DNA of 64,000 nucleotides from Mobula birostris (taxonomy: Eukaryota). The stretch is from positions 64,839,110-64,903,109 of the forward strand of contig NC_092402.1 in NCBI RefSeq assembly GCF_030028105.1, given 5' to 3'. Shown piece after piece: positions 35,600 through 64,000 of this stretch (position 1 is the first letter of the stretch; each line of letters opens with the position of its first letter). Under the pieces are notes generated by a model, which was not told the DNA's origin, did not search any database, and saw nothing but the letters and a program-made list of their open reading frames with translations. Position numbers and translations under genes: made by a program.

Positions 35600-35757
35600 T
35601 TATTGCAAAGCACTTATTGTTGATGAAACTGTAACACCATCCAACTGCTCCACTGTTTTCACCAGTATGTTCTTAGAGGATTCTGTTCGTTGTCCTGCGA
35701 TGCGAGACGTTTCCATTGCACCCAGACCACTCTGATAGGCGGAGTTGCCATAGTTAC
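35600..35757 (-). CDS. Gene A exon 9 (tail type A)
   Basis: TAG acceptor, phase 1; [58 protein letters not shown] on the minus strand at 35164-35169. Confidence 0.87.
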
Positions 35758-38700
35758 CTATATTTTAAAAATTCAAATTTAACACTTATGATTCTTTCAT
35801 GAAAATTATTCAATATCCTTCATACATTTGGAACAGCACTTTGAAAACTGCAAAGAACTTATCCAAAACAGTATGAGAAGAAATGGCTTCTTCAGCCATC
35901 GCTAAACAGTTGATCTTGTCATTAAGTATAACTGCGTTAATAATAGGGTAGCACAGTAGTCTAGTAGCTAGCGCAATCAGTGCCAGCTCTCACTGATCGG
36001 GGCTCAATTCCCATTGCTGTAAGGAGTTTGTACGTTCTCTCTGTGATGCTAATGGCTTTCCATCTGGAATCCTGGGTTTCTCCCACACATTACAGTTGGA
36101 GTTAGTAAGTTGTTGGCGTGGCATGTGGGTGCCAGATGTGATGTGATTTGATGTGATTTGACACAAACGATGCATTTCTCTCTGTTTTGATGTATATGTG
36201 ACAAATACAGCTTATTTTTAAGGTTCAAAGGTTTACGTGATATTTCCTTCAAGGGCGCTGAATTAAAATTTCAGACTCCTGTATGTACAGAATTTTTATC
36301 TGTTTTAATAATAATTGATAAAAGAAGCTAGACAATGCTGGAAATACTGATCAGAACCAGAAACCTCTGAAAAATAGAACATAATGAGTTCAAGATTGAA
36401 AAACAATCAATCAGTATTCACAACTAATTGAAAGGTGAAAATGTGAAATGCCAGCCTTTCTTTTCTCATTACAACTGAGGAGTGATCAAAGTCCAACCAA
36501 AAATTGCCATTTTTCATTTTGCGGTTTGTGTTTTGGTCAGTAGTTAAAATTTCAAGCAAGGATTATACGTTCTCTTACCTTGCTGTGAAACTTGTTGGAC
36601 GCTGAGGGTTTTGACGCCTTCTACCATCCTGTTGATAAAGGAAACACTTGTGTAACAACAGCCATTTCTAGGATGTTCAGAAATATATCTTTTTCAAGTT
36701 ACCAAGGGTTTCCTTCTGAAAGCAGCAATGAGCTGCATGGGTGAAGTTGACGGGCACATTGACTCTGTCGAGCCTTGCCCGAGACACTGATTCTGTAAGT
36801 TCGAGTGCTGCCGGTGAGCAGCAGTAGCCTCGTCAGTGTGCGCAGGGAGCTATTTGTCAGCCTGCTTATGTTGTACAGTGCTTCATCCACTGCAGCATCA
36901 GGGGAGAGTTCACCTAGTGGTGACTGAATCACTGACTAGATGTTCATTCGGAGACTGAGTCGGATGTATTTCTGGGGTCAGATGAAAACCAGCCTTTAAA
37001 CAAAAGTAAGTGCCACTCCCTGGACCAAATGCCCCATTAAAGACAAAGACTCTAGTAATGAAGAGTGCAATAAAGAGCCCGTACAGATTGTAATCTGCAA
37101 GTACGCAGGACTGTGGCATAAACCCAGTGTGATATCTGGAACTTGGAAAAGACCAAAGCCCTACCTGATTTCCTCTTGCGCCAGTAGTTTACTGTAGGTG
37201 TTAATTTCGATATCCAGAGCCAACTTGACATTTATCAGCTCGTCGATTTCACGAGTTTGCTTGGCAATCTCCTGTTTTGCTTTCCTGATGGCTTCTTGCA
37301 GATCAACGATATTTTGTTTACTGTCTTTGAGAGACATCTCGCCACGTTCCTCGGCTTCAGCGATCGCAGCCTCCAGTTTCAAACGCTGAGACACACAGAG
37401 GTTAGTGTGGACATTTTTGCAGATTATAACTTGAAGCCTTGCCAACATCCCCACCCTGCTATCGGAAAGAGCCATACTGAGAGTAGAGTATTGCAGATTG
37501 GCTTAGCAGTAATCGAGTTCACAAGGGTTACAGTGGAAGGAACCAGCCAGGTTGTTACTACTGAAAGTTCCCCAGTGTATGATTTAGCTCAGATTGACCT
37601 GGTGTTTCAGCTGTCTCTTGATCATTTGCTTTGGGCTGGGAAGAGAAAAGTGCAGATGCAAGAGACTGCAGATGCTGCAATCTGGAGTAAGAAAATAGCA
37701 GAACTACTGCACAAGATCAGCCAGTGAAGTAGCATCTGTGAAGGCAAAAAGAATTATTGACCATTTGGGTCGGGTCGCTGCATTAGGACTCGGGACTTGA
37801 GAGGAAAGACAGTTTGCTACCGTCGTTAGGCCGCAACCAAGATCTCTTGTTTGCTTTCACTTCCTGACTTACCTGCTGCTTTAGATACTCGATGTCCCCA
37901 GTCAGCTTACGGATGCGACTCTGCAGATCATTACACTCCGATTTGATCACTCGCACTTCTTCCGCATGACCTCCAGGCATTGTGCTGAGTTCCACCATCT
38001 GCAAGGAGACACTGGTAGACGTTAGTAAGGGTTTCTCCTCCCAGCACAGAGGTCAGAGCTATCAATGCACTTCTACGTGGGGCTGGAGCTGGAGCTCACC
38101 TTCGCCTTTTTCCAGTTCTCAGCATCATCACGGCTTTTATCTGCCATACTTTGGTATTGGGCCTTGACTTCACTGATGATCTGGTCTATGTTCAGGTTGC
38201 GGCTAGTGTCCACCTGCACGCTGACAGCAGTGTTCTGAATCTGTGACTCCAGCTCACGGATTTCCTAAAGATGGGCAGAGCAAAACTAATGTAAGGAGAT
38301 TGAATTGAACAGCAAAAGGACCAGAAGGCTCTTGCACCATGTAGCATATTTACCTCTTGGAAGATTGTCTTCAGGAATTCAATTTCATCAGTCAGGCTTT
38401 CTAGTTTTGCTTCCAATTCCACCTTGTTCATGTAGGATTCATCAACATCCTGGAGAGAGTAGGGCACAAGGTTTGTAAATCTATTGAAGACCACTGATAT
38501 GGTCCTACAGAGAGCTAGAAAGTAGTGCTCACCTTCTTCACCATGACAAACTCGTTTTCCATTTCAGTTCTCCTGTTAATTTCATCTTCGTATCTGAAAT
38601 GAACCACTGACGTTACTGGCAAACCCTTGGAAATCAACATTTCTGTCCCATTTCTTCGACAGGGCCATGCTGGTTGTCGGAACTCCTTGCTCCCTGGTGC

Positions 38701-62500: not shown

Positions 62501-63829
62501 ATCTTCCTGCAAATTGTCTACATCCATTCATTCCCTGCCTGTTCACGTGGCTGCATAAGTGGTTCTAAAATGTTCATATCCTATCTACTTCCAACAACCA
62601 GTGTTTCAGCACATTCTAGGCATCCACCACTCTCTGTATAAAGAACTTGACTTGTACATTTTCTTTAAACTTTCCTACTTTCACCTTAAATCTACGTATG
62701 TCCTCCAATATTTGACATTTCCACCTGGGGAAAAACTCTGATTAGTTACCCGATCTTTACCTCTCATAATTTTATATACTCTTTATCATGTCGCCCGTCA
62801 GCCACCAACACATCGAATACACTCCAATCCATACAGCATCCTGGCGAATCTCTTATACATTCTCGGTCCAAAGTCCTTCCATTCTTCCTGCAGTGCAGAA
62901 ACCAGAATGGGACAAAATACTCCAAATGTGGCCTAGCCAAAGTTTTGTGTAGCTACAACATGATTTGCCAACTTTAACTCAATACCCTGACCAATGAAGG
63001 CAAGCATAACCTACACCTATTTTACTACCCTAATCTCTTGTACTATCACTTTCTATGGATATGCTTTGTAGTTCTTCTTGTAAACTGGAGATTGGAAATT
63101 GCAGGCCTATACTAACTTGAAACAGGTGAGAGACTGTTTCATCCAGGACGCTCACTGCCCATAGATGAAGGTTACTTTCCTCATTCAATTTGGACTGTTT
63201 CCCATGGGATTGTTCTGATTCTTTGTGTCTCTCACTATACCTTTCAACTGGGCAGCATTTACGATGCTCAGAACCCTTGAGAGAAAGGAGAATATTCACA
63301 CGATTAAAATTTTTTTTCATCAGATTCCAATGGCACTGTAGTGCAGTTGTTAGCACAATGCTTTACAGTGTAGACAACTGAGGTTCAATTCCCGCCACTG
63401 CCTGTAAGGAGTTTGTATGTTCTCACTGTGACCGCGTGGGTTTCCTCCGGGTGCTCCAGTTTCCTTCCACAGTCCAAAGACATACAGGTCGGTAGGTTAA
63501 TTGGTCATTGTAAATTGTCCCCTGATTAGGCTAGCGTTAAAAATTGGGCAATATGGCTCGAAGGGCCTGTTCCGCGCTGTATCTCAATAAGTCGATAAAT
63601 ATGTTCTCTAAGACAATGTAAAAGTAATTTCTTTGGTGAAGGAGGAGCTAGCTGGCTGCTATGCTTGGACTTGTGTGATAGCTTTAAACATATTTTATGT
63701 TTCTTTCAGTAACCTTCCTCTAACTTACAAATTATTTCAAAGTTCTTGAATTTCTGACAAAGGTATGATGGTTTCTCTTTTCAGTACTTGAATAATGTGC
63801 TTAAGCAAAGAAAGAGTCCAGATTGGCAG

Positions 63830-64000
63830 ATTCAAAAATTTCAGTTTATTCAGTGTTACAGAAATGCCACAAAAGATAAATCCCCAACATAAAATGAGTC
63901 AAAATCACAAATCAGAGCACCACATCTAAAACTTTGATTAATTTCCTATTTTCAAAGGCCCAAGAAGTAAAGGATGAACTTTCCACTTTTCCCACAAACC
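63830..64000 (-). other. 3' UTR and polyA signal of a further keratin gene carrying tail B (its exon 9 CDS expected just outside the window)
   Basis: Copy of ~48375-48544; AATAAA on the minus strand at 63845-63850. Confidence 0.75.

What the first reader, a model, noticed from the sequence alone, without database searches (positions are those of the whole stretch)
35600..64000. Tail-swapped chimeric keratin made by a tandem duplication that breaks inside intron 8
Seen: a 15,417-bp unit begins 72 nt past the exon-8 donor (36507/51924). Genes A and B therefore share promoter and exons 1-8 (no coding difference found by eye) but have different intron-8 sequence and different phase-1 last exons, each with its own 3' UTR and AATAAA. 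Tail A is GNYGNSAY...[22 protein letters not shown]; tail B is [10 protein letters not shown]...[25 protein letters not shown]. Tail B's 3' UTR recurs at the window end. Established: unequal crossover between neighbouring paralogs yields Lepore/anti-Lepore hybrid genes, and keratin tails influence filament bundling and interactions. Inference: one head+rod module has been recombined onto a neighbour's tail, giving a new in-frame keratin. The window alone cannot tell whether B or A is the hybrid.
Basis: partly seen in the sequence, partly recalled or inferred. Interest (0 to 1): 0.85.

Follow-up and report, generated by a model that had tools for sequence, protein, structure and literature searches.

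The report
One keratin body, two ancient tails
This ray genome carries six tandem copies of a keratin gene with almost the same head and rod, one ending in tail A and five in tail B; a skate, a shark and two other rays show the same two-tail pairing, so the genes are likely an old pair kept alike by repeated DNA exchange rather than a newly made hybrid protein.

Summary
The window shows 2 of 6 copies of a 3.7-kb block X (327 nt upstream of the ATG, exons 1-8, 72 nt of intron 8), arranged tailA-X-(Y-X)x5. Each 11.7-kb spacer Y carries tail B. Contig depth is about 7-10 times the flanks, and RNA contigs splice exon 8 to both tails, so this is not a false duplication. Neither protein is new. RefSeq proteins of Mobula hypostoma, Hemitrygon, a skate and a catshark each include an A-type and a B-type tail on rods that differ by 0-5 of 347 residues within a species but by up to 154 between species. 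Rod trees group by species; tail trees group by paralog. The best reading is two paralogs older than the shark-ray split (about 286 My), whose exons 1-8 are kept alike by gene conversion and unequal crossover. The 72-nt point is then the edge of the homogenised block, not a recent breakpoint. The four middle copies are likely anti-Lepore-type hybrids (A's upstream region, B's tail), but they encode the ordinary B protein. I found no description of this in ten literature searches. It is a new example of a known process.

The parts
35600..35757 (-). Exon 9A coding part (tail A, 52 aa, K8-like end motif [11 protein letters not shown]) with stop codon
   Evidence: 1 match in G000; exon 8 to 9A joint in RNA contigs of X19 and X9
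35107..35599 (-). 3' UTR of gene A; poly(A) hexamers at 35169 and 35116
   Evidence: an X19 contig covers 35107-35753
35758..36506 (-). A-specific part of intron 8 (intron 821 nt in all)
36507..40204 (-). Block X, copy 1 (3,698 nt): 72 nt of intron 8, exons 8 to 1 (ATG 39877), TATA-like CATAAAA near 39980, 327 nt upstream of the ATG
   Evidence: assembled as one 3,698-nt high-depth contig in DNA runs X1-X3
40205..51923 (-). Spacer Y, copy 1 (11.7 kb): upstream region of gene A, then the 3' UTR, exon 9B and the B-specific part of intron 8 of the next gene
   Evidence: five copies, 3-48 substitutions apart
48736..48890 (-). Exon 9B coding part (tail B, 51 aa) with stop codon; AATAAA at 48394
   Evidence: one X20 RNA contig carries body exons and tail B, with a 50-nt gap the size of exon 8 between them
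51924..55621 (-). Block X, copy 2 (ATG 55294); CDS identical to copy 1, 10 non-coding substitutions
   Evidence: junction contig 51372-51953 at depth 48.2 in X1
55622..64000 (-). Spacer Y, copy 2 (cut by the window end). The array continues through X3-X6 to G000:C38:64,957,667

Best explanation
The locus is a six-copy tandem array of a type II keratin, with one copy ending in tail A and five in tail B, and it likely descends from two ancient neighbouring paralogs whose exons 1-8 are repeatedly homogenised by gene conversion and unequal crossover while their last exons evolve separately. Shown: the layout tailA-X-(Y-X)x5, splicing of exon 8 to both tails, mosaic variation among X copies, and species-grouped rods with paralog-grouped tails in five elasmobranchs. 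Inferred: the ancestral layout was unique flank-X-tailB-[A upstream]-X-tailA. Misaligned exchange between any two X blocks then adds or removes a Y-X unit, so tail B changes in number, tail A stays single, and each new middle copy pairs A's upstream region with B's tail. Inferred function: A and B would polymerise alike with the same type I partner(s) and differ only in tail-mediated properties (bundling, binding partners, phosphorylation) and in their 3' UTRs. The array would raise tail-B dosage.
For: Six X copies and one tail A in G000; five tail-B exons in the 264 kb examined. X copies differ by 0-14 substitutions, introns included. Of 45 pairs of informative sites, 5 show all four gametes. 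Over 347 columns from H1 to the end of exon 8, proteins differ by 0-5 within a species, 53-56 between Mobula and Hemitrygon, 117-128 between rays and skate, and 145-154 against catshark. In the rod tree the A label needs 5 changes and an A clade is rejected (p-AU 0.0001). In the tail tree A and B separate at 98/95, and species clades are rejected for catshark (0.021), skate (0.008) and Hemitrygon (0.00014). Each of the 5 species has exactly one distinct A-type protein among those retrieved. Single-contig depth of X over flanks is 9.2, 10.4 and 6.8 in X1-X3, and about 7.9 in X5 of organism B.
Against: For the other four named species I have only proteins, so adjacency, intron identity and conversion tracts there are untested. 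B-type tails of ray, skate and shark are only weakly alike (shuffle p 0.001-0.22, against 0.001 or less for all A-A pairs). The tail tree has 57 columns, a long-branch warning and an unsettled bootstrap. I assigned the A/B labels by eye before building trees. In the skate the A protein is annotated with a shorter, partly different head and differs at the last residue of exon 8, so the block edges are not identical everywhere. Only 5 species were retrieved, and tail-only searches reached no further than Mobula and Hemitrygon. The depth tool warns that depth is no copy number, and X1-X3 may be the source sample. No function was tested.
Confidence: 0.82

Rival explanations
1. A recent tandem duplication broke inside intron 8 and put one keratin's head and rod onto a neighbour's tail, making a new protein.
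For: Sharp identity edge 72 nt into intron 8, with unrelated intron 8 sequence beyond it. The copies are 99.5% identical. The middle copies do look like upstream-A/tail-B hybrids.
Against: Both body-tail combinations occur in Hemitrygon, skate and catshark. Organism B has nearly the same edge. No second, different head+rod lies upstream of the last tail B; it is a sixth X.
Confidence: 0.04
2. The ancestor was one gene with two alternative last exons, and exons 1-8 were duplicated independently and recently in each lineage, separating the two tails without long-term conversion.
For: It would also give species-grouped rods and paralog-grouped tails. Within-species differences are very small.
Against: It needs the same duplication at least four times. 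None of the 5 species shows a single body for both tails, apart from M. birostris, where separate loci are seen directly: A and B proteins differ by 1-5 residues or a 4-residue indel, and RefSeq names carry no isoform label. Mosaic sites show exchange among copies here.
Confidence: 0.1
3. The repeat is an assembly artefact (false duplication or uncollapsed haplotypes).
For: X3, X4 and X5 are identical in substitutions, so the exact count of six could be wrong.
Against: Depth of X is about 7-10 times the flanks, and the X-intron 8B junction contig has 92-98% of X's depth in X1-X3. Both splice forms occur in RNA contigs. Other species have both proteins.
Confidence: 0.02
4. Strong purifying selection alone keeps the two rods alike, without sequence exchange.
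For: Only 2 of 22 substitution sites among X copies are exonic, where about 8 are expected (binomial p 0.005), so selection acts on the exons.
Against: Rods differ by up to 154 of 347 residues between species yet 0-5 within, and the introns are also more than 99.5% identical between copies.
Confidence: 0.02

Closest known systems
Elasmobranch sparc-L/scpp pair (PMC9122587; passages read)
   Same: Old tandem duplicates whose converted exons group by species and whose unconverted parts group by paralog; origin placed in the elasmobranch ancestor.
   Different: There conversion covers four discrete 5' regions and is seen only in sharks. Here the whole head and rod appears homogenised in shark, skate and rays (introns too, where DNA was seen), only the last exon is exempt, and one paralog is amplified.
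SIGLEC11/SIGLEC16 paired receptors (PMC5701461; abstract read)
   Same: Repeated conversion in each lineage keeps one domain alike while the two proteins stay functionally different.
   Different: Primate time scale and signalling receptors. Here it is a cytoskeletal protein over about 286 My, and a functional difference between the tails is untested.
Mammalian keratins under concerted evolution: K6A/B/C, K81/83/86/87, K31/33A/33B/34 (PMC5540548; passages read)
   Same: Neighbouring keratin paralogs that group by species rather than by gene.
   Different: The passages describe whole genes grouping together, with significant conversion in only 3 of 19 groups. They do not mention a tail exon left out.
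Anti-Lepore haemoglobins and the human L/M opsin array (recalled, no call)
   Same: Unequal crossover leaves both parental genes and adds hybrids between them; one end gene stays single while the other varies in number.
   Different: Anti-Lepore hybrids encode new chains. Here exons 1-8 are the same in both parents, so the hybrids encode the ordinary B protein.
krt8/krt18 head-to-head pairs and keratin cluster 2 (bioRxiv 10.1101/2020.05.06.063123; passages and section 3.2 read)
   Same: The array lies about 30 kb from a K8-like gene facing a type I keratin head to head.
   Different: The array genes are not that krt8. Whether this is cluster 2 or subcluster 4 was not tested.

Membership tests
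Intermediate filament proteins | Central rod of about 310 residues (Pfam Filament) | tested here: met
   PF00038, 297.5 bits against a cut-off of 40, residues 112-422, for both A and B
Type II keratins | Rod closest to type II keratins | tested here: met
   Of the 10 best representatives looked up, 8 are named type II keratin, 1 'hypothetical' and 1 'Zgc:158846'; RefSeq names these proteins 'type II cytoskeletal 8-like'
Type II keratins | Nine exons with internal sizes near 209-215, 61, 96, 165, 126, 221 (sizes recalled) | tested here: met
   209, 61, 96, 165, 126, 221, 50 nt; the reference pattern is from memory
Type II keratins | Pfam Keratin_2_head | tested here: not met
   No hit at E<=1 for 7 of the 8 proteins scanned, including the sawshark K8-like control; the turtle K8 hits it. 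The model probably misses elasmobranch heads.
Type II keratins | Obligate heteropolymer with a type I keratin | not tested
   No assembly or complex prediction was run
KRT8 orthologue | Head-to-head position with krt18 | tested here: not met
   That position is held by another gene, 62-82% identical per exon to the sawshark K8-like protein
Concerted evolution of part of a gene | Converted region groups by species, excluded region groups by paralog | tested here: met
   Trees and AU tests on 13 proteins from 5 species
Concerted evolution of part of a gene | Homogenisation extends to non-coding DNA, with mosaic sites | tested here: met
   Shown in G000 only: 0-14 substitutions per X pair and 5 of 45 four-gamete pairs
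Concerted evolution of part of a gene | Linked paralogs with homogenised introns in the other species | not testable with these tools
   No skate or shark genomic DNA was available. Members of each species share a longest-contig length, which only hints at linkage.
Lepore/anti-Lepore hybrid genes | 5' part from the downstream gene and 3' part from the upstream gene, between intact parents | tested here: inconclusive
   The layout fits copies 2-5, but the two-gene ancestral layout is inferred
Lepore/anti-Lepore hybrid genes | The hybrid encodes a protein unlike either parent | tested here: not met
   Copies 2-5 differ from copy 6 by one body and one tail residue, and the same B form exists in other species

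The most novel reading that the evidence does not exclude
Sharks and rays have kept, for about 286 million years, a selected 'one rod, two tails' keratin system. Recombination locks the filament-forming part of two genes together so that they co-assemble interchangeably. A conserved K8-type tail and a faster-evolving second tail give the filaments different properties, and the mix is tuned by the copy number of tail B. Mobula has raised tail B at least five-fold and placed most copies behind gene A's upstream region.
Probability: 0.3. Interest if true: 0.75.

Novelty: new member of a known kind. Interest (0 to 1): 0.5.

Why it matters
Keratin tails are largely dispensable for filament assembly (PMC8091587, discussion passage), and their roles are hard to separate from those of head and rod. 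This pair is a natural tail-swap control, repeated in five species: the same body carries two old, maintained tails, so tail function can be tested directly. It is also a long-lived case of partial concerted evolution in a cytoskeletal gene. In practice, rod-only phylogenies would misread these genes as recent species-specific duplicates, and the uniform 'K8-like' names hide two distinct genes.

Tried and rejected
Tail-only homology searches found only Mobula and Hemitrygon representatives: 1 of 34 and 3 of 37 candidates. This is weak reach, not absence. Profiles of the family's H1 and tails over all proteins fetched found no members beyond the 13 used. No DNA similarity was found between introns 8A and 8B, and only dispersed-repeat-like matches between the start of Y and the flank beyond copy 6. 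A tail-B-like hit at extended position 171,285 (E=0.53, with a stop codon) was treated as chance. The run search listed no holder on record as RNA; three runs guessed as RNA were laid and show GT-AG joints, and their depths were not used to rank A against B. The exon 8 to 9B joint is not among the listed joints (2,730 were not shown); it is read from one X20 contig in which 50 nt, the size of exon 8, lie between tail B and exon 7. Tail A was not seen joined in X20's listed rows. Two look-ups in earlier scan findings returned nothing. No structure or complex prediction was run, because the tails are low-complexity and the rod pairing is textbook. A link to the mobulid filter epithelium, which is described as keratinous (PMC12690469, passages), was considered but has no support here, since the tissues of the RNA runs are unknown.

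Full report
OBSERVATION. Self-comparison gives one long direct repeat, 36507-48544 against 51924-64000, at 99.47% identity. Both copies hold exons 1-8 of a minus-strand keratin (390, 209, 61, 96, 165, 126, 221 and 50 nt), with identical CDS ending in phase 1. Identity begins 72 nt into intron 8. Beyond it, copy 1 has an 821-nt intron and tail A, and copy 2 has a 3,105-nt intron and tail B. The two intron-tail-UTR regions share no alignment better than E=0.08.

THE ARRAY. The exon 8 region has 6 matches in G000, all here; tail A has 1. With 200 kb of neighbouring assembly (no N), the layout is tailA-X-(Y-X)x5. X is 3,698 nt and Y about 11.7 kb, and the array ends 327 nt upstream of the sixth ATG. 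All six CDS are intact. Copies 1-5 are identical in exons 1-8; copy 6 has two changes, one of them S334N. X copies differ by 0-14 substitutions, and X3, X4 and X5 by none. Y1-Y4 differ by 3-19; Y5 differs by 40-48 and has a 1.1-kb transposon-like insertion. Of 22 substitution sites in X (one indel site left out), 10 are informative, and 5 of their 45 pairs show all four gametes, so the copies have exchanged sequence. Only 2 of the 22 sites are exonic (p 0.005). About 30 kb beyond the array lies a K8-like gene facing a type I keratin head to head, the arrangement described for krt8/krt18 from sharks onward (bioRxiv 10.1101/2020.05.06.063123, section 3.2).

IS IT REAL? The run search listed 24 runs; I laid 8, all as contigs. 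In DNA runs X1-X3, X forms one 3,698-nt contig at depth 51.5, 34.1 and 50.9. Flank contigs are at 5.6 (one contig), 2-4.2 (six) and 6.6-8.5 (six), giving ratios of 9.2, 10.4 and 6.8. The contig joining X to intron 8B has 92-98% of X's depth. These runs may be the source sample, and the tool warns that depth is no copy number, but a false duplication would give a ratio near or below one. The true count may exceed six. Runs X19, X20 and X9 are guessed to be RNA and show GT-AG joints for introns 1-6. X19 and X9 join exon 8 to tail A. One 1,839-nt X20 contig carries body exons and tail B, with 50 nt, the size of exon 8, between tail B and exon 7. Organism B has a matching contig, 90 substitutions in 3,682 nt (2.4%), starting 9 nt from the same intron 8 edge; in X5 its depth is about 7.9 times the flanks, at low coverage.

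RELATIVES. The proteins are in RefSeq as 'keratin, type II cytoskeletal 8-like [Mobula birostris]'. Cluster look-ups gave one A and two B proteins in M. hypostoma, one A and one B in Hemitrygon akajei, one A and two B in the skate Rhinoraja longicauda, and one A and one B in the catshark Scyliorhinus torazame. That is 5 of 5 species in which the family was retrieved. Over 347 columns from H1 to the end of exon 8, proteins differ by 0-5 within a species, 2-3 between the two Mobula species, 53-56 between Mobula and Hemitrygon, 117-128 between rays and skate, and 145-154 against catshark. In the rod tree the A label needs 5 changes, and holding A together costs 894 log-likelihood units (p-AU 0.0001). 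In the tail tree A and B separate at 98/95, and species clades are rejected at p 0.021, 0.008 and 0.00014 (LG+G4 without mixture, 57 columns, long-branch warning, bootstrap not settled). A tails resemble each other (shuffle p 0.001 or less) and K8 tails (p 0.005 or less). B tails resemble each other more weakly across ray, skate and shark (p 0.001-0.22). Sharks and skates diverged about 286 My ago (PMC10115646, passages).

MECHANISM. Shown: array layout, splicing to both tails, mosaic X copies, and opposite tree signals for rod and tail. Inferred: an ancestral pair, B upstream of A, whose X blocks stay similar enough to keep exchanging, while intron 8 and exon 9 have diverged past alignment and so lie outside the exchange. 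The 72-nt point is then the edge of the homogenised block. A misaligned crossover anywhere within X adds or removes Y-X, which changes the number of tail B copies and never of tail A; this fits one A protein in each of the five species. It also makes copies 2-5 hybrids of A's upstream region and B's tail, the anti-Lepore geometry (recalled). X19's tail B contig carries two Y5-type UTR variants, and X20's listed pieces have no differences from the window copy, which suggests both the end copy and the middle copies are transcribed. X19's contigs lack two other variants of the assembled copy 6, so this is tentative. Whether the pair first arose by whole-gene duplication or by an ancient tail capture cannot be told. 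Function is inferred only: tails are largely dispensable for assembly (PMC8091587, passages), so A and B would assemble alike and differ in tail-dependent behaviour and 3' UTR control.

KNOWN AND NEW. Partial conversion between old paralogs is known: sparc-L/scpp in sharks (PMC9122587, passages) and SIGLEC11/16 in primates (PMC5701461, abstract). Concerted evolution is reported for mammalian K6, K81/83/86/87 and K31/33/34 (PMC5540548, passages). I found no description of this pair in ten searches (most hits seen only as listings). The vertebrate keratin survey has no occurrence of 'conversion' and used only elephant shark among cartilaginous fishes. A family review had one passage on them (PMC8733776). 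The library lacks most subscription papers, I saw none of the older shark keratin cloning papers (recalled), and I read no supplements; the survey's Table S1 could bear on whether the chimaera has the pair.

VERDICT. It is not a new chimeric protein. It is a new and unusually clean example of a known process. Interest 0.5.

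Noticed in passing
window 29991-32117; related pieces at 8406-9209 and G000:C38 extended position 105,890-107,002: A 2.1-kb element with about 550-nt terminal inverted repeats (96% alike). Two other pieces are about 95% identical, one of them inserted in spacer Y5. It is probably a young non-autonomous DNA transposon.
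   Followed up: partly
window 36507-40204: Exons 1-8 span only 3.3 kb and hold almost no dispersed repeats, while the neighbouring K8-like gene spans about 17.9 kb. Conversion or selection may purge insertions from X.
   Followed up: partly
window about 970-13800, + strand: Another type II keratin-like gene with long introns, convergent with gene A. It was not modelled in full.
   Followed up: partly
L009-L011 (G000:C38 about 64,987,000-65,008,000): A K8-like gene (- strand) head to head with a K18-like type I keratin (+ strand).
   Followed up: partly
spacers Y1-Y4: Y1 and Y3 differ by 3 substitutions and Y2 and Y4 by 5, but the other pairs by 15-19. This suggests a recent two-unit (about 31 kb) duplication, although X2 and X4 differ by 11.
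   Followed up: partly
window 37403-37813 (intron 6): 12 of the 22 substitution sites among X copies fall in this 410-nt stretch.
   Followed up: no
extended positions about 208,450-210,750 and 261,700-264,000 (L015, L020): Two related tandem arrays with a period of about 34 nt, about 90% alike.
   Followed up: no
window 44072-44109 and the matching sites in other Y copies: A CA microsatellite whose length differs among units accounts for most unit-length differences.
   Followed up: yes
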